From: Eledone cirrhosa
Lineage: Eukaryota
Reading direction: 5' to 3'
NCBI GenBank assembly: GCA_964016885.1
Contig: OZ024759.1
Coordinates: 11,222,001-11,286,000, forward strand
DNA: 64,000 nt
A program made the position numbers and the translations under genes. Shown in pieces: positions 28,607-54,428 of the stretch. Within the stretch, counting starts at the first letter, position 1, and each line of letters begins with the position of its first letter. The notes beneath the pieces were generated by a model. It saw only the letters and a program-made list of their open reading frames with translations, was not told where the DNA came from and made no database searches.

Positions 28607-28833
28607 TAATAATAAATGTGAAGACTAAAATCCAAAGAGGGCTCGATAAGGATAAATATATATCAAATATATAAGAACCCTAGAGCAAATATTTATTAAA
28701 ATAACAGATTAAAGTTTAAGCAAAGAATCGCTGCTTTCACCCTTAACGGGATCTTCTGAAACTCAAAAGATCCCGTTAAGGGTGAAAGCAGCGATCCTTT
28801 GCTTAAACTTTAATCTGTTATTTTAATAAATAT
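28607..28833. mobile_element. Fold-back element, probable inverted Penelope-like pLTR
   Basis: Arms 28689-28755 and 28767-28833; second copy at 42568-42844; flanked by (TA)n. Confidence 0.65.
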
Positions 28834-29579: not shown

Positions 29580-31590
29580 GTTGTTTACTGAAGAAGGTAT
29601 CAATATTAGCTACTCTATAGCAGCACCTCTGTACAAAGTTTGCACTGTCCTCACAAGCCATTCCTCAACACCTAGTTTCCTTAGGGACCACCAGATGACA
29701 GATTGGGGTACCCTATCAAAGGCCTTCTCTAGGTCAACAAAGGCTAAGTATAGTGGCTTATTCTTCTCTAAGAACCTCTCTTGTCTCATCAAGAAGAGGG
29801 CATCTGTTGTACTTTTTCCAGGCACAAAACCAAACTGCATCTCATCTAGTTTGACCCTTTCTCTAATTAGTTGTGCTAATATCCTTTCTGCCACTTTCAT
29901 AACCTGATCCATCAGTTTTATACCCCTATAATTGCTCCTCTCCAGAGCATCCCCTTTACCTTTGTAGAAATTTATGAGAATACTGCTGCACCAGTCTTTG
30001 GGTATGACACCACCATATATAGCCTGATTGATGATGCGTGCAACCAGTTTAGTGCCTATGTCCCCTGATGCCTTCAGCATCTCAGTAACTAACCCTGATG
30101 GTCCAGCAGCCTTACCATTTTTCATTTCTTTAATCGCCTCTTGGATCCTATATTTGTCAATCTCAATAGCTGGTCCCTCCGTCGGAGCTACTGAGGGTAA
30201 TCTCTCTCTCTCATAATGACATTTTCAGGCCTCCTTTTTCTGATCATTCGTGACACTAAGTACACCGGCATCATTCCGGACACATTTATCTCCAACAACA
30301 TCTTGATCTGCATTGACACATTGCCTTGCAATGTGGAACACCACACGCCTCTGATCTTCCCGTCACAGAACATTGGTAAACCTCCTACTCTCAGCCTCCC
30401 TGCGTGTTAAGTACACTTGACGTCTAGCTTCTCTCTTAGCGGCTGTATATCCTTCTCTACTCCTACCCTTTTTCCAAGCCTTCCATGCTAGTCTTTTGTC
30501 TCTAATGGCCCTATCTACTGTGCTGTTCCACCACCAGGTCACTCTCTGTCTGGTTGGAGCTCTGCTCCAGCCACAAGTTTTATCAGTAGCCTGCAGTAAG
30601 TTGTCACGTAAGAAATTCCAGTTATCTATGTCATACGACTCTAAATCGTCTTCTTTTTCGTCATACACATCTTGAAGGGCTTTCCTATATTTGTATTTTA
30701 GTGAAAGGTCTTTTAGCTTCCAGACCTTTCTTCTTCACACCTTCCTGTATGTCTCATTCCATCTCTTGCTTACTGAGATATCACTAACGACTAACCTATG
30801 CTGTTGTGGACATTCTTCCCCAGGGTATCCCTTGGTATTTGACACCATCTGCCTGTCCCGCTGCCTAACTAGTAAAAAGTCAATCTGGCTTATGTGCTCG
30901 CCTGATTTGTAGGTTATTAGGTGGTTGGCAGGTTTCTGGAAGTTAGTGTTGCAAATAGTCAGTGTACTTGCGTCACAAAATTCAAGAAGTCTCACTCCTT
31001 CATTTCTTGAGCCGTAACCGTGCCCACCATGTACCCCAGTGTAACCATCCTGGAGCTGTCCGACATGACCATTGAAGTCCCCTGCTAGCATAACGATGTC
31101 TCCGTCCTCTGTCATTGCAGCTGTTTGTAAAAGTTGCTCATAAAAGCAGTCTTTCTCATCTTTGCCTCGGCCTGCTTGGGGAGCATAGGCAGAGATGATT
31201 GTCAGTAGTCTCCTGCCTACAACTAATCTAAGCTTAATTATTCGATTACTAACTCAAACTACCTCTATTGTCTTATTGATCCATCTCTCAGCCAGGAAAA
31301 TGCCTGCTGCCCCTAACCCATCATCCTTACATACCCAGAAAAGCTTATAGCTAAGATGTTTGCCTGCGACTAGTCTTGCAGAGGCACCTCTCCATCTCAA
31401 CTCTTGCACGCAGCACACATCCATATACCTTCTCTCCAGCATCTCCGCTATTTCAGCAGATTTACCTGTGAGAGTGCCAACATTAAGTGTTGCAACTCTG
31501 AGATGCGACGTCTTGATATTTTTGTTGTTCCTATATATTTGTTGCTGTGCTCATAATTGTTTTGGCATTGATACACTGGTTGGATGCCCT

Positions 31591-33299: not shown

Positions 33300-34480
33300 A
33301 CCATTTACATTACTCTATATATACTATTGTATTGTCACAGTAAAGGCTTTACCTCACATAATACCTCACATAACATTTACATTACTCTATATATACTATT
33401 GTATTGTCACAGTAAAGGCTTTACCTCACATAATATCTCACATAACATTTACATTACTCTATATATACTATTGTATTTTCACAGTAAAGACTTTACCTCA
33501 CATAATATCTCACATAACATTTACATTACTCTATATATACTATTGTATTTTCACAGTAAAGGCTTTTCCTCACATAATATCTCACATAACATTTACATTA
33601 CTCTATATATACTATTGTATTTTCACAGTAAAGGCTTTACCTCACATAATATCTCACATAACATTTACATTACTCTATATATACTATTGTATTTTCACAG
33701 TAAAGTCTTTACCTCACATAATATCTCACATAACATTTACATTACTCTATATATACTATTGTATTTTCACAGTAAAGGCTTTACCTCACATAATATCTCA
33801 CATAACATTTACATTACTCTATATATACTATTATATTTTCACAGTAAAGGCTTTACCTCACATAATATCTCACATAACATTTACATTACTCTATATATAC
33901 TATTATATTTTCACAGTAAAGGCTTTACCTCACATAATATCTCGCATAACATTTACATTACTCTATATATACTATTGTATTGTCACAGTAAAGGCTTTAC
34001 CTCACATAATATCTCACATAACATTTACATTACTCTATATATACTATTGTATTGTCACAGTAAAGGCTTTACCTCACATAATATCTCACATAACATTTAC
34101 ATTACTCTATATATACTATTGTATTGTCACAGTAAAGGCTTTACCTCACATAATATCTCACATGACATTTACATTACTCTATATATACTATTGTATTGTC
34201 ACAGTAAAGACTTTACCTCACATAATATCTCACATAACATTTACATTACTCTATATATACTATTGTATTGTCACAGTAAAGACTTTACCTCACATAATAT
34301 CTCACATAACATTTACATTACTCTATATATACTATTGTATTGTCACAGTAAAGGCTTTACCTCACATAATATCTCACATAACATTTACATTACTCTATAT
34401 ATACTATTGTATTGTCACAGTAAAGACTTTACCTCACATAATATCTCACATAACATTTACATTACTCTATATATACTACT
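33300..34480. repeat. 60-bp satellite, about 20 copies
   Basis: CATTTACATTACTCTATATATACTATTGTATTGTCACAGTAAAGGCTTTACCTCACATAATATCTCACATAA-type unit. Confidence 0.9.
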
Positions 34481-34708
34481 GTAATACAATTGAATATCTG
34501 AGAGGGAAGAACACCGATACAAGTATACATGTGTTCCAATCGTAAATGACCAAGTTAGCAAGGTTGAAAAAATACTAATTTAAAACAATTATTGTTTTAA
34601 ATTAGTATTTTTTCAACCTTGCTAATTTTTTCAACTTGGTCATTTGCAGTTCGAACACATGTATACTTGTATCGGTGTTCATCCTTCTCATATATTCATT
34701 TGTATTAC
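34481..34708. repeat. Imperfect palindrome with arms of about 110 bp
   Basis: GTAATACAA...AATTTAAAACAAT | ATTGTTTTAAATT...TTGTATTAC. Confidence 0.85.
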
Positions 34709-35224
34709 ACGGCTCGGAAAGATTCCCTTCTTTGAGCTATTTAATTGTAAAAGATATTTTGAGTTTCTAACCCAATCTATGATATACTATTGTATAGATT
34801 TTACCTCACATAATTATCTCACATAATATCAAATCTATGAGATTTTGATGTTATTTATTTTGAGAACAAAACCTTAATGTAAGTATGAGTGACCGGTTCC
34901 AGACAGTTTGAACAGTGAGAGAATTCTGGCTGGATATGGCCGGTTTAAATGATAAAGGGTTAAAATGCTCAAGGAACTTCTTAGGTGATATCTCATTGGA
35001 GGTCAGCTAAACCTTCTGAGGTATGAGCTGTCTTCCCACTTATTACTGAGAGGGTTGTGAGGGCAGAGTCCTCCGATATGTTCCCCAGAGTGTCCTACCA
35101 GAAGCATCAGTCACCAAATGGTGAGTATGGTCCCCAAGTGAGGCCAACTGATCTTATAGATGTTACCCAACCATCTCTCTTGTGGTCTACCTCAGAGTCT
35201 GCTACTTTATATGATCTCTTTGGG

Positions 35225-37243: not shown

Positions 37244-37645
37244 TTATGCAATCATAGGTGCAGTTATACAATCATTGAGATATGCCGGTGGCCATGTATG
37301 TCTATCCAGTAGTGAAATGTGTTGTGTATATATATGTGTATATATATATATATATAAATGCATTCAATGTTCAGAGAGTGGGATTGGCCCCGTGCAAAGC
37401 CTTTCTTCACTTAAAAAAGCTTCAAGCAGAGGCACCACTTGATATGTGACATTTTTGTAATGCAAGGCATGGCTGGCCATAGGCAAGTCCCTAGAAACCA
37501 AAAAGCCACGTCCATGATGCCCATGGTTAAGTATCAAGAATGACATTACTCGAAATTGAGTTGCAACCATCATTATATATATCATCATCATTATCATCAT
37601 CATCTTCGTTTAACGTCCATTTTCCACGCTAGCATGGGTTATATA

Positions 37646-37999
37646 TATATTGTTATACTTTGGGAGGGTCATGTTGCCAATAAGAAACACGCGCACCAGT
37701 TGCTTTCACTTCAATTTATTATAATAAATTTATAAATTTAGGAATTTATAAATTTCCGGTTGGAGAGGCACAAAAACAAAGAAAAGAATCCCCAGTCACT
37801 GAAGAGGTCACAGAATGTGTGACGAAAGAACTTTGACAATATATAAACAATCATCTGGTTGTGGAACCAACTAACCAACCAACCAACCGGAAATTTATAA
37901 ATTCCTAAATTTATAAATTTATTATAATAAATTGAAGTGAAAGCAACTGGTGCGAGTGTTTCTTATTGGCAACATGACCCTCCCAAAGTATAACAATAT
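37646..37999 (+). mobile_element. Penelope-like pLTR with inverted copy
   Basis: Inverted arms 37646-37763 and 37883-37999 around a hammerhead; 3' end ATGACCCTCCCAAAGTATAACAAT shared with about 55877-55900. Confidence 0.7.
37795..37837 (+). ncRNA. Minimal type I hammerhead ribozyme
   Basis: GTCA-CTGAAGA-G-GTCACA/TGTGAC-GAAAG-AA-CTT-TGAC. Confidence 0.75.
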
Positions 38000-38071
38000 C
38001 GGTTTCAACACACGTTTTCAGATAAAGAATCTTGCTGAACAAATTCAGAAACGAAATATATATATATGTAT

Positions 38072-38612
38072 AAGTATGAATATTTTCGAAACAGCGAGCG
38101 GGTTTGAAATTATTATAAATGTAAGCTATCGCCGTATTTTGACTAAAGAAATTAAAGAAATTATTTAGCCTGATAGTGGGGTTAAGAACCCTCGGAGAAA
38201 TGGAAAAAAATGAGTATTGACGTACATGGGAGTCGACTCTCCTGTACGCCAATACTCATCTTTTTCCATTTCTCCGAGGGTTCTTAACCCCACTATCAGG
38301 CTAAATAATTTCTTTAGTCAAAATACGGCGATAGCTTATATTTATAATAATTTCAAACCCGCTCGCTGTTTCGAAAATATTCATACTTGACATTACAGTC
38401 GCTAAGTTTATAGCTTCTAATTTGAATGGAAAAAAACGGGTGATGTGTTGGTGTAAATGGTAGCACAGTGGTCTGGATAACCAAAGATGTGGGTTCGACT
38501 CCCATGTACGTCAATACTCATCTTTTTCCATTTCTCTAAGGGTTCTTAACCCCACTATCAGGCTAAGTAATTTCTCTAGTCAAAATACGGCGATAGCTTA
38601 CATTTATAATAA
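38072..38612 (+). mobile_element. Inverted plus tandem (262-bp period) element carrying a tRNA-like gene
   Basis: Palindrome 38072-38388 centred on TCGA at 38233-38236; direct repeat 38233-38350 and 38495-38612; (TA)n on both sides. Confidence 0.75.
38442..38513 (+). tRNA. 72-nt tRNA-like cloverleaf (anticodon position GGA, atypical) with T5 terminator
   Basis: Acceptor GATGTGT/GTACGTC, D GTGT/GCAC, anticodon TGGT-CTGGATA-ACCA, T GTGGG-TTCGACT-CCCAT; TTTTT at 38523. Confidence 0.6.
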
Positions 38613-38628
38613 TAATATATATATATAT

Positions 38629-38968
38629 GGAGGCACATGGCTTAGTGGTTAGAGCATTGGCCTTGCAATCGAAAGGTTGTGAGTTCAATTCTCAGACCGG
38701 TTGATGTGTTGTTTCCTTGAGCAAGACACTTTATTTCACATTGCTCCAGTTTACTCAGCTGTAGAAATGAGATGATAGGGACTGGGGTCCCTATCATTCC
38801 ACTGCAGAGTGGTCGTGTAGGCGCCACGGCAAAAAAGCACCCAGCACTCACTGTAAATGAGGTTGGTGTTAGGAAGGGCATCCAGCTGTAGAAATCAAGC
38901 CAGAATCAGTTCCCGTCCCACCCTTGCAAGCAGGGAAAAGTGGACATAAAATGAAATGATGATGATGA

Positions 38969-38971
<3 letters not shown>
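38629..38971 (+). mobile_element. SINE family A
   Basis: Full-length match to 897-1238. Confidence 0.9.
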
Positions 38972-39015
<44 letters not shown>

Positions 39016-39056
39016 GGGAACAAAGAATCAATATTGCATCATATACATATTTAATG

Positions 39057-39148
39057 ACATATTACAGATGTTTCACTGCTGATCAGCTCAAGGAAGGATC
39101 GAATTATGTTCGTTCCAGACTCTGGAATCGAAAGCTCTTCACATATGT
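39057..39148 (-). ncRNA. Hammerhead-like fold with a C3-to-G core variant
   Basis: Minus: ACATAT-GTGAAGA-branched stem II-GAAAC-ATCT-GTA-ATATGT. Confidence 0.45.
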
Positions 39149-39155
39149 GTTCTCA

Positions 39156-39203
<48 letters not shown>

Positions 39204-39274
39204 TTATATATATTTATATATATATATATATATATATCATCATTTTACGTCCACTTTTCCCTGCTTGCAAGGGT

Positions 39275-39326
<52 letters not shown>

Positions 39327-42225: not shown

Positions 42226-42547
42226 AAATCAGGAAAGAAGAGTGACACGGTTTGCTATACAATAAGGGCTTTATTCACATTGCTGACAATTGTTTCTCTG
42301 AACTGGTAGGTCTAGAGATCGCTACTCGCCTGTTTCTGCGTCAATCCATCACCAATTCATAGTTGTAACCAGTCAATTCATCAGAGCTAGCATTCTCGCT
42401 AGCTCTGATGAATTGACTGGTTATAACTATGTATTGGTGATTGATTGACGCAGAAACAGGTGGGTAGCGATCTCTAGACCTACCAGTCAGGAATGTGATT
42501 AAAGCCCTTTTTGTAAAGCAAACCGTGTCACTCTTCTTTCTTGATTT
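42226..42547. mobile_element. Head-to-head inverted Penelope-like pLTRs
   Basis: Palindrome around loop 42392-42397; the left arm holds a complete hammerhead, the right arm lacks GAAACAATTG. Confidence 0.75.
42282..42387 (-). ncRNA. Type I hammerhead ribozyme with extended stem II
   Basis: Minus: GCT-CTGATGA-..TGACTGG...CCAGTTCA..-GAAAC-AATT-GTC-AGC, then AATAAA; same stems I and III as 28103. Confidence 0.75.
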
Positions 42548-42567
42548 CTATATATATATATATATCG

Positions 42568-42844
42568 TAATAATAATAAATTTGAAGACTAAAATCCAAA
42601 GAGGGCTCGATAAGGATAAATATATATCAAATATATAAGAACCGTAGAGCAAATATTTATTAAAATAACAGATTAAAGTTTAAGCAAAGAATCGCTGCTT
42701 TCACCCTTAATGGGATCTTCTGAAACTAACAAAGTCAATCTCTTTTTTGACTTTGAGATTGACTTTGTTAGTTTCAGAAGATCCCGTTAAGGGTGAAAGC
42801 AGCGATTCTTTGCTTAAACTTTAATCTGTTATTTTAATAAATAT
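42568..42844. mobile_element. Fold-back element, second copy of the 28607 family
   Basis: Arms 42653-42742 and 42755-42844; hammerhead-like CAGAAGA-TCCC/GGGT-GAAA. Confidence 0.65.
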
Positions 42845-46552: not shown

Positions 46553-46592
46553 ATATATATATAGAGAGAGACAACAGGAGTAACATAATAGT

Positions 46593-46634
46593 ATCACTGA
46601 TGATGTTGCAGATGTGCAACGAAAGAACTTTGTT
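46593..46634 (+). ncRNA. Minimal type I hammerhead ribozyme
   Basis: ATCA-CTGATGA-T-GTTGCA/TGCAAC-GAAAG-AA-CTT-TGTT; paralogue with C3-to-A at 55655-55696. Confidence 0.65.
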
Positions 46635-48290
46635 AGACTATATATATGTGTTTACATCTATATTATATCTGTATTTTTGACTGTTGGTCAGTCAATGGTA
46701 AACATTGAGGACCAAATGAATTAACTGTGGAGATATAAAAGATAGAAGTGAAAACCATCCAAAGAGTGAGTGTGTTCTCTTATTATTTATGTTATTATTT
46801 CAGTTATTATTTCAGAAGAAAGAATGAGAAATAAAATAGATTGAGGGGACGGGTGGGTTGGAATTGGAAAAAATGTCTTTAGATATATATATATATATAT
46901 ATTCATATATATAAATATATTCATATATATATATACACTGTAAATGTGGTTGGTGTTAGGAAGGGCATCCAGCTGTAGAAAACCCGCCAGACAGTCCTAT
47001 GCGAGCAAGACAACCACTCTTGCCTCAAGTGGGAAAACCCCCGTCCAAACCCATGCAAGCGTGGAACAGGGACGTTAAACGATGAGGATGATGATGATGA
47101 TGATATATATATATAATATGATTGGTGCTAGGAAGGGCATTCATCTGCAGAAACCAAGCCAAAATATAGATCTGTATGAGCATCATGTGATCTCTGGACC
47201 TGACATAACACCAGAACCCATCTAACCCATGCAAGTTTGAAAGAATTACAGCTCACACCTCTGTAAGTTTAGCTAGCCTCTTACAAGGTTGTATCTCACA
47301 GGAGGTTTCTTGGGTATTTTAATAATAGGGATCCTTCTGGGCAGACGCATTCATCACTGGATCTATTTCTGTCACACTTCTCACCCAGTCACATTCATTC
47401 TTCCTCTACATGTGACCAAACCATGTCGTTTAGTGAGGTATAGACTAAACAGCAACAACAGGCATAGAGTTAGATCGACAAGATCTCAGCCCTCACTTGT
47501 TTACCAAGTGGGGTGGAACTTGTCAAATTGGACCAAGGAAACAATGTTCCCATTCATCTTTCCTGACAGAAGAAAGGAGCTGATTGTTAGATTAGACCAA
47601 GGAAACAATATTTCCATTGGTCTTTCCGTTGTTGAATGTCGGATCAAACCAATGAAACAATATTTCCATTGGTCTTTCCGTTGGTGATACTGTCTGATGT
47701 TTTTTTCTTCTCACCCATTCCTATTCATCCTTCCTCCACACATGACCAAACCATGTCATTTAGTGAGGAATGGACTGAACAGCAAGAACAAAGAATTTTT
47801 ATTTTTTATTTTTCCTCTCTCACTCTGGATGTAATATTTCATTAATTAAACCATTCCAGGACTCGTTACAATATATTGGCACCGATTTTTTTACCATTGA
47901 TTTCACTCTGATTAATTATCTTACCATTTGATAATGAAGAAACGAGTTTATGAAGCAACATCTGAAGTGTTTGGGCAATAAATATCAAAGAATGTGTTTA
48001 GAATGTGAGGGTATGGGGTGAGGGGACAGGCAGAATGGGGAATATTTGATGGTAGCAATACTGCTGGGTTCTTGTAGCAATAATTTATTATCTTTAACCA
48101 TCTTGCCTGCCTGCCTGTCTGTCTGTCTGCACGTATGTATGCCTGTCTGTCTGTCTGATTGTATGCCTGTCTGTCTGTCTGATTGTATGTCTGTCTGCCT
48201 GTCTGATTGTATGTCTGTCTGTCTGATTGTATATCTGTCTGATTGTCTGTCTGAACAATGGTCTTACTAGTTTAAAACTGATAAAATCCT

Positions 48291-54108: not shown

Positions 54109-54155
54109 ATACGATAATTAAATAAATGGAAACTATATTTATAAAACCATATTTA

Positions 54156-54217
54156 TTTCATTATATATATTTCAGGGATATCATATTAACAATATGTTAT
54201 GCCTTCTTCAGACAAAA
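54156..54217 (-). ncRNA. Type I hammerhead ribozyme (mirror of 54236-54297)
   Basis: Reverse complement of the right arm. Confidence 0.75.
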
Positions 54218-54235
54218 TACAATATAGACAGTATA

Positions 54236-54297
54236 TTTTGTCTGAAGAAGGCATAACATATTGTTAATATGATATCCCTGAAATATATATAATGAAA
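54236..54297 (+). ncRNA. Type I hammerhead ribozyme
   Basis: TTTTGT-CTGAAGA-AGG..CATATT/AATATG..CCT-GAAAT-ATAT-ATA-ATGAAA, then AATAAA. Confidence 0.75.
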
Positions 54298-54428
54298 TAA
54301 ATATGGTTTTATAAATATAGTTTCCATTTATTTAATATCGTAAACATACTCCAAATACTTGTTGAGTGCTTTTATATCAGTTATAAATATTTACTCGTTG
54401 TAACCCAACATTTTAAATATAACTTTCC

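What the first reader, a model, noticed from the sequence alone, without database searches (positions are those of the whole stretch)
38072..38612. Penelope-style inverted and tandem element carrying a tRNA cloverleaf instead of a hammerhead
Seen: a 165-bp inverted arm, then a 262-bp unit that starts in a T-loop and ends in a complete 72-nt cloverleaf (38442-38513), then a further ~118 bp of direct repeat, all between (TA)n tracts. The fold-back apex is the TCGA of the T-loop. The tRNA lies inside a circularly permuted unit rather than at the 5' end as in a SINE. It has a GGA anticodon position with U37, a short variable loop and a T5 terminator 10 nt downstream. I found no hammerhead. Inference: a non-autonomous element mobilised by PLE machinery, in which the tRNA-like fold acts as a Pol III promoter or as an RNase P/RNase Z site that cuts multimeric transcripts, the role usually assigned to the hammerhead. 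I do not recognise this as a described cephalopod family.
Basis: partly seen in the sequence, partly recalled or inferred. Interest (0 to 1): 0.8.

Follow-up and report, generated by a model that had tools for sequence, protein, structure and literature searches.

The report
tRNA-headed Penelope-type hitchhiker retroelement
This 540-base insert is one copy of a multi-copy, non-coding repeat family that carries a tRNA look-alike and no ribozyme, and its back-to-back arms, unequal ends and TA-microsatellite target indicate that Penelope-like retrotransposons likely copied it, which would make it a SINE-like parasite of a retrotransposon class for which my searches found no tRNA-headed parasite in print.

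Summary
There is a 165-bp inverted arm, a 262-bp period, a 119-bp direct repeat (93%), a 72-nt cloverleaf (Rfam 47.1 bits), (TA)n flanks and no hammerhead. Public runs show a multi-copy family: 2,874 contig pieces in one run, 2,847 raw reads in another study, and pieces under two more organism labels. Fold-back junctions recur, mostly in the tRNA's 3' arm. Tandem junctions recur. The window copy's two outward ends differ by 37 nt, matching the published 30-40-bp Penelope 'tail'. Penelope-type mobilisation is therefore likely (about 0.8), but no autonomous partner was found. The 'circular permutation' is better read as a 5'-truncated partial tandem of a leader-tRNA-tail unit. The tRNA is a non-translating mimic (anticodon loop drifts), clamped by a conserved 17-bp leader/trailer helix. 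The end points give little support to RNase P/Z cutting. They fit reverse transcriptase stalling on the folded tRNA, and a recurrent A58-to-T change hints at m1A58 misreading. The most likely role is a leaky Pol III promoter; a conserved T5 argues against it. No RNA data were available. Verdict: new variant of a known kind (non-autonomous Penelope derivatives, retrozymes, Schistosoma Sm-alpha); interest 0.58.

The parts
38055..38071 (.). Left (TA)n target tract; the outer end of the arm is ambiguous by about 6 nt
38072..38236 (-). Inverted, 5'-truncated copy (T-loop to long 3' end) with a 9-bp duplication that is also seen in other copies and organisms
   Evidence: duplication in X1 (6 contigs), X4 and X5, table 4
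38233..38236 (.). Fold-back apex: self-complementary TCGA = T-loop positions 55-58 (A58 = 38236; 38498 in the full copy)
38233..38388 (+). First unit, 5'-truncated in the T-loop: 3' end of the tRNA, trailer and tail
38352..38388 (+). 37-nt optional extension between the short 3' end (offset 119) and the long 3' end (offset 156). It folds as a weak AC-loop hairpin no more stable than shuffles. Candidate Penelope 'tail' between two reverse-transcription start sites (inferred)
   Evidence: z -0.01; X4 records 9 and 10; PMC11167929
38389..38424 (+). Spacer between units, the least represented part of the family; would be copied only from dimeric read-through RNA (inferred)
   Evidence: table 2; X1 records 1 and 2 bridge it
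38425..38441 (+). Leader strand of a 17-bp helix (15 of 17 pairs in this copy; the family majority letters at 38435 and 38437 restore the other two)
   Evidence: searches (320 of 100,000 shuffles; z -2.97), 20 table 3
38442..38513 (+). tRNA-like cloverleaf, 72 nt; A box about 38449-38460, B box 38492-38502; anticodon loop variable across copies
   Evidence: table 3, 54
38516..38532 (+). Trailer strand of the helix, including T5 at 38523-38527 (Pol III terminator-like)
38514..38613 (+). Tail of the second unit, ending at the short 3' end (offset 119)
38614..38628 (.). Right (TA)n target tract, followed by an unrelated ordinary SINE from 38629

Best explanation
The locus is one insertion of a multi-copy, non-coding repeat family with a leader-tRNA-tail unit of about 262 nt, likely copied into (TA)n by the reverse transcriptase/GIY-YIG endonuclease of a Penelope-like element, with the tRNA mimic likely serving as a SINE-type Pol III promoter and as a roadblock that sets the 5' truncation points. 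Steps: (1) Inferred: a tandem source locus is transcribed from the A/B boxes, and a fraction of transcripts reads through T5 into the next unit, giving dimeric RNA. (2) Inferred from the anole PLE in vitro: the PLE protein nicks both strands of a (TA)n target and starts reverse transcription inside the RNA, at one of two sites 37 nt apart. Shown: the two outward ends of this copy differ by 37 nt. (3) Shown: copies are cut short and turned back mostly within the T-arm and acceptor 3' strand. Inferred: reverse transcriptase stalls on the folded, probably m1A58-modified tRNA. (4) Inferred: the stalled cDNA ends are joined through 3-4-nt microhomology, either two cDNAs annealing or one folding back. 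That gives the inverted arm and partial tandem. (5) Inferred: the 17-bp leader/trailer helix shields the tRNA fold from excision by RNase P/Z and does not serve as a cut site. Odds: PLE mobilisation about 0.8; promoter role, given that, about 0.65.
For: Family: X1 2,874 contig records laid on 262 bp (702/800/957/415 at >=99/95-99/90-95/<90%), X11 2,847 raw reads from another study, X4 11 and X5 5 records under other organism labels. Fold-back recurs: of 15 joints shown (5 not shown), 5 change strand. Three lie in the tRNA 3' arm (38497/38513, 38503/38507, 38508/38512), and these three are the only ones with raw-read support (4, 26 and 8 reads; 3, 7 and 6 starts). The period holds 16 self-complementary 4-mers, 4 of them in that arm. 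Tandem recurs: X1 records 1 and 2 bridge tail-spacer-tRNA with 9 and 23 other letters, and X5 record 17 is one diverged period. Two 3' ends: in X4 a depth-22 record stops at 38351 and a depth-5 record runs to 38390 into (TA)n. Published PLE anatomy is a partial tandem, an inverted 5'-truncated copy, a 30-40-bp tail at one end and a (TA)n bias (PMC8557442, passages). The tail lies between two internal RT start sites, and both target strands are extended (PMC11167929, abstract and main text). Neighbours with PLE-type hammerheads show the same layout and orientation (core type as in the Hydra table). tRNA mimic: anticodon-loop 38474 T>C in 343 of 1,147 X11 reads. A58>T appears in 107 X1 contigs at 3.7% depth, against 43 for the adjacent CpG transition.
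Against: No autonomous partner was found. By eye, the ~600-letter ends shown for five cephalopod Naiad consensi, and the start and hammerhead region of Hydra-1_Obim, do not resemble the tail, whereas non-autonomous Chlamys elements generally share 3' ends with their partners. The 100 longest complex ORFs of the window (of 153) hold a LINE but no GIY-YIG hit. T5 is the only T-run of 4 or more in the period and shows no listed variant, and a subfamily appears to have a longer T-run (loose end at 38527, 40 contigs); both argue against efficient Pol III read-through. The left arm and middle copy share a rare letter at 38383 (T in 285 of 290 X11 reads), which also fits a local DNA fold-back. The tail hairpin is not significant. 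A58>T could be an old subfamily marker. X11 is RAD-seq, so its depth is biased; contig depth is no copy number; X1 may be the window's own sample.
Confidence: 0.55

Rival explanations
1. PLE-mobilised as above, but the template is Pol II or host read-through RNA. The tRNA fold is a captured tRNA gene with its own flanks, kept as a passenger or as a stability/localisation module and not as a promoter.
For: T5 is conserved 10 nt behind the tRNA, as in a true tRNA gene, and a longer T-run subfamily has spread (table 7). PLE reverse transcription starts internally, so no defined RNA end is needed. PLE promoters described so far lie in the pLTR, with an intron.
Against: The A and B boxes stay intact while the anticodon loop drifts. 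B-box-breaking A58>T copies are individually low in depth (62 per contig against 360-950 for subfamily markers), as expected if they do not amplify further.
Confidence: 0.2
2. One reading: RNase P and/or RNase Z cut the tRNA fold in multimeric transcripts, as a hammerhead does in retrozymes, giving monomers or circles that a PLE copies.
For: The cloverleaf is intact and the unit size (262 nt) is in the retrozyme range. One X5 contig joins an inverted arm at about 38514, the RNase Z site. One listed joint has an arm starting at 38510-38513, and X11 depth gains about 150 of 1,836 reads between 38511 and 38515.
Against: The listed fold-back points lie mainly 5-16 nt inside the tRNA, beyond where RNase Z would end the template. 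No listed loose end marks G1, and the variant heads clipped at 38456 still carry the leader. Leader and trailer are paired in a 17-bp helix, which from recalled knowledge hinders both enzymes. Cutting by both would excise the tRNA from the unit.
Confidence: 0.12
3. An ordinary LINE-mobilised tRNA SINE whose copies were secondarily duplicated and folded back at the DNA level next to fragile (TA)n tracts.
For: The natural unit is leader-tRNA-tail. The arms share a rare letter at 38383. The window is full of palindromes from other families and holds a LINE remnant.
Against: The same apexes recur across copies and organisms. There are two 3' ends about 37-39 nt apart. The inverted arm duplicates the 3' end, whereas LINE twin priming (recalled) gives non-overlapping pieces. 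The ordinary SINE next door shows no fold-back in 9 window copies.
Confidence: 0.08
4. A non-autonomous rolling-circle DNA element (Helitron/Helentron type, recalled) that captured a tRNA gene; tandem and inverted forms come from rolling-circle read-through and template switching.
For: Short internal hairpins, microsatellite association and tandem forms.
Against: There is no fixed 5' end. The truncation points track the tRNA fold, and the A58>T excess is easier to explain with an RNA template.
Confidence: 0.05

Closest known systems
Penelope-like elements (EN+ clades; Naiad, Hydra and Neptune prefer microsatellites) and their non-autonomous derivatives such as MRC1 (PMC8557442; PMC11167929)
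   Same: Partial tandem, inverted 5'-truncated copy at the 5' end, 30-40-bp tail at one end only, (TA)n target with no discernible TSD. Naiads also lack a canonical hammerhead.
   Different: No ORF, carries a full tRNA-like cloverleaf, and no 3' similarity to an autonomous family was found.
Animal non-LTR retrozymes (PMC7229834; PMC7761336; bioRxiv 10.64898/2026.07.22.740005)
   Same: Short non-coding unit of 150-400 nt in partial or full tandem, proposed to be mobilised by PLEs.
   Different: No hammerhead, which defines retrozymes. It has a tRNA module instead. Circular RNA was not tested.
Schistosoma Sm-alpha/Sj-alpha SINE-like retroposons (as reviewed in PMC6765202, passages; originals not read)
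   Same: Tandem units that appear to be transcribed by Pol III, where the upstream unit is needed to propagate the next.
   Different: Sm-alpha has an active hammerhead. This family has none, and has a complete cloverleaf in a 17-bp clamp with a T5 behind it.
tRNA-derived SINEs (LINE-dependent), for example the family at window 38629-38780
   Same: tRNA-derived head with A and B boxes, a drifting anticodon and a non-tRNA tail.
   Different: About 50 nt of upstream sequence is kept, there is an internal T5, there are two 3' ends, and tandem and fold-back insertions recur.

Membership tests
Penelope-like element (autonomous) | ORF with PLE reverse transcriptase and GIY-YIG endonuclease | tested here: not met
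   No ORF of 120 aa or more within the element; the ORFs overlapping it that were scanned have no Pfam hit
Non-autonomous PLE derivative | Partial tandem (pLTR-like) arrangement | tested here: met
   Window; X1 records 1-2 and X5 record 17
Non-autonomous PLE derivative | Inverted 5'-truncated copy adjoining the 5' end | tested here: met
   Window; 5 strand-changing joints among 15 shown
Non-autonomous PLE derivative | 30-40-bp tail at one end only | tested here: met
   37 nt in the window; X4 records end at 38351 and 38390 (the base after 38351 is not shown)
Non-autonomous PLE derivative | Microsatellite or AT-rich target | tested here: met
   (TA)n on both sides; X4 loose end into (TA)n
Non-autonomous PLE derivative | 3'-end similarity to an autonomous PLE of the same genome | tested here: inconclusive
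   No genome held; by-eye look at the ends of 6 published cephalopod consensi shows no match; other clades and Repbase/Dfam not available
Non-LTR retrozyme | Type I hammerhead in each unit | tested here: not met
   Motif scan of both strands and Rfam; family variants at >=5% do not create a core (15 rows not shown)
Non-LTR retrozyme | Abundant circular monomer RNA | not testable with these tools
   No RNA holder listed
tRNA-derived SINE (LINE-dependent) | tRNA-related head with A and B boxes | tested here: met
tRNA-derived SINE (LINE-dependent) | 5' end at the tRNA start, one fixed 3' end, TSD, monomeric copies | tested here: not met
   Leader kept, two 3' ends, tandem and fold-back forms; TSD not resolvable
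tRNA-derived SINE (LINE-dependent) | Pol III transcription | not testable with these tools
   No RNA or ChIP data; T5 at 38523 argues for early termination
Functional nuclear tRNA gene | Conserved anticodon loop (U33, purine 37) and a body fitting the isotype | tested here: not met
   T37; position 33 is C in 343 of 1,147 reads; GGA anticodon with a 4-nt variable loop

The most novel reading that the evidence does not exclude
Penelope-like retrotransposons have their own class of SINEs: Pol III-driven, ribozyme-free, tRNA-headed units that arose in several animal phyla, need a tandem dimer to pass on their upstream flank, clamp the tRNA fold in a leader/trailer helix to escape RNase P/Z, and record in genomic DNA the stalls and A58-to-T misreads of the Penelope reverse transcriptase on an m1A58-modified template.
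Probability: 0.35. Interest if true: 0.8.

Novelty: new variant of a known kind. Interest (0 to 1): 0.58.

Why it matters
Known SINEs borrow LINE machinery (recalled), and the short Penelope hitchhikers in the papers I read are either hammerhead-bearing or plain derivatives of the autonomous element. A tRNA-headed, hammerhead-free family with full Penelope insertion anatomy would add a third pairing, and would explain some tRNA-like predictions in repeat-rich animal genomes. It is also a small, abundant natural substrate for open questions on Penelope transposition: how the inverted arm forms, what defines the tail, and whether the hammerhead is needed. If the A58 signal is real, the genomic copies preserve a record of an RNA modification.

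Tried and rejected
No whole genome was held, so the genome-wide BLAST table could not be made. No second copy lies in the window. There was no exact match to a 23-nt pattern in viral contigs or in metagenome contigs, and no blastn match in phages. No RNA holder was listed, which says nothing on expression. The joint 'goes back 262' (259 reads in X11) is not evidence of tandems: it only shows the tail continuing across my cut point. The X11 'molecule ends' at 38307/38310, 38349/38352 and 38419/38422 coincide with the three AATT sites, so I read them as a RAD restriction artefact. Rfam hits to snoR125 and miRNA models are far below gathering score and reflect the palindrome. Assembly fold-back artefact was rejected because the arms differ by 5 substitutions and a 9-bp indel and the layout recurs in raw reads. 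Hammerhead-like words on the minus strand lack the G8-A9 core and were rejected. A two-template origin of the arms is undecided: the 9-bp duplication favours it, and the shared rare letter at 38383 argues against it. The source tRNA isotype was not identified. Literature: 10 searches found no paper describing a tRNA-headed PLE-dependent element. The library lacks most subscription papers, Repbase and Dfam could not be checked, and the bioRxiv supplements were closed. Look-ups of earlier findings by sequence and by place gave nothing.

Full report
1. Observation. The coordinates are right. The stretch 38072-38236 is the reverse complement of 38233-38388, with 5 substitutions and a 9-bp duplication in the left arm; the two meet at the self-complementary TCGA. 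38233-38351 recurs at 38495-38613 (119 nt, 93%, spacing 262). 38442-38513 is a 72-nt cloverleaf (Rfam 47.1 bits; ARAGORN tRNA-Ser(GGA)) with T37, a 4-nt variable loop and T5 ten bases downstream. (TA)n tracts flank both ends. A relaxed hammerhead scan of both strands of the window found cores at 37799 and 46597 only, none in the element. Rfam at E<=5 found no ribozyme in 37600-38800, but it also missed the core at 37799.

2. It is a family. No genome was held and the window has no second copy, so I used public runs. Ten runs under seven organism labels hold words of the element, three of them half or more. I laid four of the 13 listed runs on one exact period, 38293-38554, at 80% likeness. X1 gave 2,874 contig records (702 at 99% or more, 800 at 95-99, 957 at 90-95, 415 below 90). 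X11, RAD-seq raw reads from another study with the same species label, gave 2,847 reads. X4 and X5, other organisms, gave 11 and 5 records. Summed contig depth is not a copy number and X1 may be the window's own sample, but a single-copy locus cannot give this spread.

3. The anatomy recurs. Fold-back: of 15 joints shown (5 hidden), five change strand. Three lie in the 3' arm of the tRNA (38497/38513, 38503/38507, 38508/38512), and only these have raw-read support (4, 26 and 8 reads from 3, 7 and 6 starts). The other two are single contigs elsewhere. The period holds 16 self-complementary 4-mers, four of them in that arm. X4 shows the same turn-back at 38503. Tandem: X1 records 1 and 2 bridge tail, spacer and tRNA with 9 and 23 other letters, so they are other copies; X5 record 17 is one diverged period of about 243 nt. 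The joint 'goes back 262' is only the tail crossing my cut and is not used as evidence. Two 3' ends: the window copy's outward ends stop at offsets 156 and 119, 37 nt apart. In X4 a depth-22 record stops at 38351 while a depth-5 record runs to 38390 and then into (TA)n. Depth is lowest at 38392-38418 in X1 and X11. The natural unit is therefore spacer/leader - tRNA - tail, and the window copy is an inverted truncated unit, a truncated unit and a full unit.

4. Comparison with Penelope-like elements. Craig et al. (PMC8557442; passages, section 10 and supplement parts) describe PLE insertions as 5'-truncated partial tandems, often with an inverted 5'-truncated copy at the 5' end, a 30-40-bp tail at one end only, and (TA)n targets that hide TSDs. 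Naiads lack canonical hammerheads, and both Naiad and Hydra families are listed for cephalopods, the Naiads as old remnants. Frangieh et al. (PMC11167929; abstract, main text and part of the methods) show that the anole PLE protein nicks and extends both target strands and starts reverse transcription inside the RNA at two sites in an AC-rich stem-loop. The sequence between those sites is the tail, and hammerhead cleavage is not needed for insertion in vitro. All four insertion features are met here. The window gives an internal control: 37647-37999 has inverted arms around a minimal hammerhead whose 8-nt core resembles those tabulated for Hydra elements, with its 3' ends facing outward. By the same logic the tRNA-sense strand is the RNA strand here. 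What is missing is the partner. The ends shown for five cephalopod Naiads and Hydra-1_Obim do not resemble the tail by eye, and the 100 longest complex ORFs of the window (of 153) contain a LINE but no GIY-YIG hit.

5. The tRNA module. It is not a translating tRNA: position 33 is C in 343 of 1,147 X11 reads and G in others, while the A and B boxes stay largely intact. This copy has 15 of 17 pairs (320 of 100,000 shuffles reach this; z -2.97 for the whole fold). The family's majority letters at 38435 and 38437 restore the other two pairs, and common A-to-G changes at 38432-38433 keep G-U pairs. The cloverleaf thus sits on a conserved clamp with a 3-nt bulge. At A58 (38498), T appears in 107 X1 contigs at 3.7% of depth and in 115 of 1,165 X11 reads from 47 starts. 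That is the second-highest contig count of the 40 rows shown (15 hidden) and the highest for a minority letter; the adjacent CpG transition has 43. Depth per contig (62) is near that of scattered changes (31-36) and far below subfamily markers (360-950) (which tabulates 18 of the 40 rows; none of the omitted minority rows exceeds 87 contigs). m1A58 is known to stall reverse transcriptases and to be misread (recalled; PMC2359750, passage, reports A-to-U reads at this position but doubts the cause). The window's own apex falls on A58, and one recurrent joint ends at 57-59. This suggests the template was RNA, folded and modified as a tRNA, but an old subfamily marker is not excluded.

6. Mechanism. 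Shown: family, recurrent fold-back and tandem forms, unequal ends, (TA)n target, tRNA mimic in a clamp, no hammerhead. Inferred: a tandem source is transcribed from the A/B boxes with leaky read-through of T5. A PLE protein primes both target strands at one of two tail sites. Reverse transcription stalls in the tRNA's 3' arm, and the ends join through 3-4-nt microhomology. The spacer, lying behind the priming site and ahead of the likely start site, can be copied only from dimeric RNA, which fits its low depth and recalls the tandem dependence of Sm-alpha (PMC6765202, passages). Against the promoter role: T5 has no listed variant, and a subfamily with a longer T-run has spread (40 contigs, consensus agreement only 0.65). 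Against RNase P/Z cutting: truncations run 5-16 nt past the RNase Z site, no listed end marks G1, and the clamp would hinder both enzymes (recalled). One X5 contig and a step of about 150 of 1,836 reads near 38514 leave a minor RNase Z route open. Whether the arm comes from a second cDNA or a fold-back of the first is undecided: it carries a family-wide 9-bp duplication that the direct copies lack, but it shares a rare letter at 38383 with the middle copy.

7. Novelty. Non-autonomous PLE derivatives are known: MRC1, short non-autonomous Penelopes in butterflies (PMC6685494, passage) and retrozymes (PMC7229834 and PMC7761336, passages; bioRxiv 10.64898/2026.07.22.740005, first two of five parts and a term search with 0 hits for tRNA). 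Sm-alpha couples Pol III to a tandem ribozyme unit. Ten searches found no description of a tRNA-headed, hammerhead-free PLE-dependent element, but Repbase, Dfam and most subscription papers were not searchable. PMC4209133 and PMC10294476 were seen as passages only and add nothing on this point. Earlier AI notes of this scan describe look-alike elements in other, mostly coral-like genomes. They share no words with this unit, I did not check them, and they are leads only; if right, the design recurs across phyla. Verdict: it works like a non-autonomous Penelope derivative, it is not a retrozyme (no hammerhead) and not an ordinary SINE (ends fail). New variant of a known kind; interest 0.58.

Noticed in passing
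window 37647-37999: 117-bp inverted arms (99%) around a 119-bp core holding a minimal type I hammerhead (core at 37799) of the Hydra-PLE type. It looks like a second, unrelated PLE-type non-autonomous insertion 70 bp from the finding, and could be mistaken for a MITE.
   Followed up: partly
window 46560-46800 and 55620-55905: Two copies of another short family with a related hammerhead (intact core at 46597, first core letter changed near 55657). The 55620 copy ends in (TA)n with nearly the same 3' end as the 37647 element.
   Followed up: partly
window 38629-38780; also 897, 10399, 25181, 26360, 26806, 45677, 51589, 57871: A young ordinary tRNA-headed SINE family: 9 copies in the window at 95-99% identity, one abutting the right (TA)n flank of the finding.
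   Followed up: partly
window 28689-28833, 42653-42844, 34480-34709, 42226-42547, 54110-54342, 56964-57477, 38916-39278: Many further long palindromes next to (TA)n. The 28689 and 42653 copies are one family with different apexes, suggesting several PLE-type families in this genome.
   Followed up: partly
window 29613-31550, minus strand: Broken LINE with apurinic-endonuclease and reverse-transcriptase remains (RVT_1 E 8.7e-12; Exo_endo_phos_2 E 1.8e-5).
   Followed up: no
window 38430-38436 (family variants): Leader A-to-G changes fall inside the 17-bp helix and keep G-U pairs while the partner T-run does not vary. This could be selection on pairing, or fixed A-to-I editing of the RNA template.
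   Followed up: no
window 38442-38456 (loose ends in X11, X4, X5): A subfamily with a different 5' head (purine-rich leader, altered acceptor 5' strand, A box one base shorter) is shared by three organism labels.
   Followed up: no
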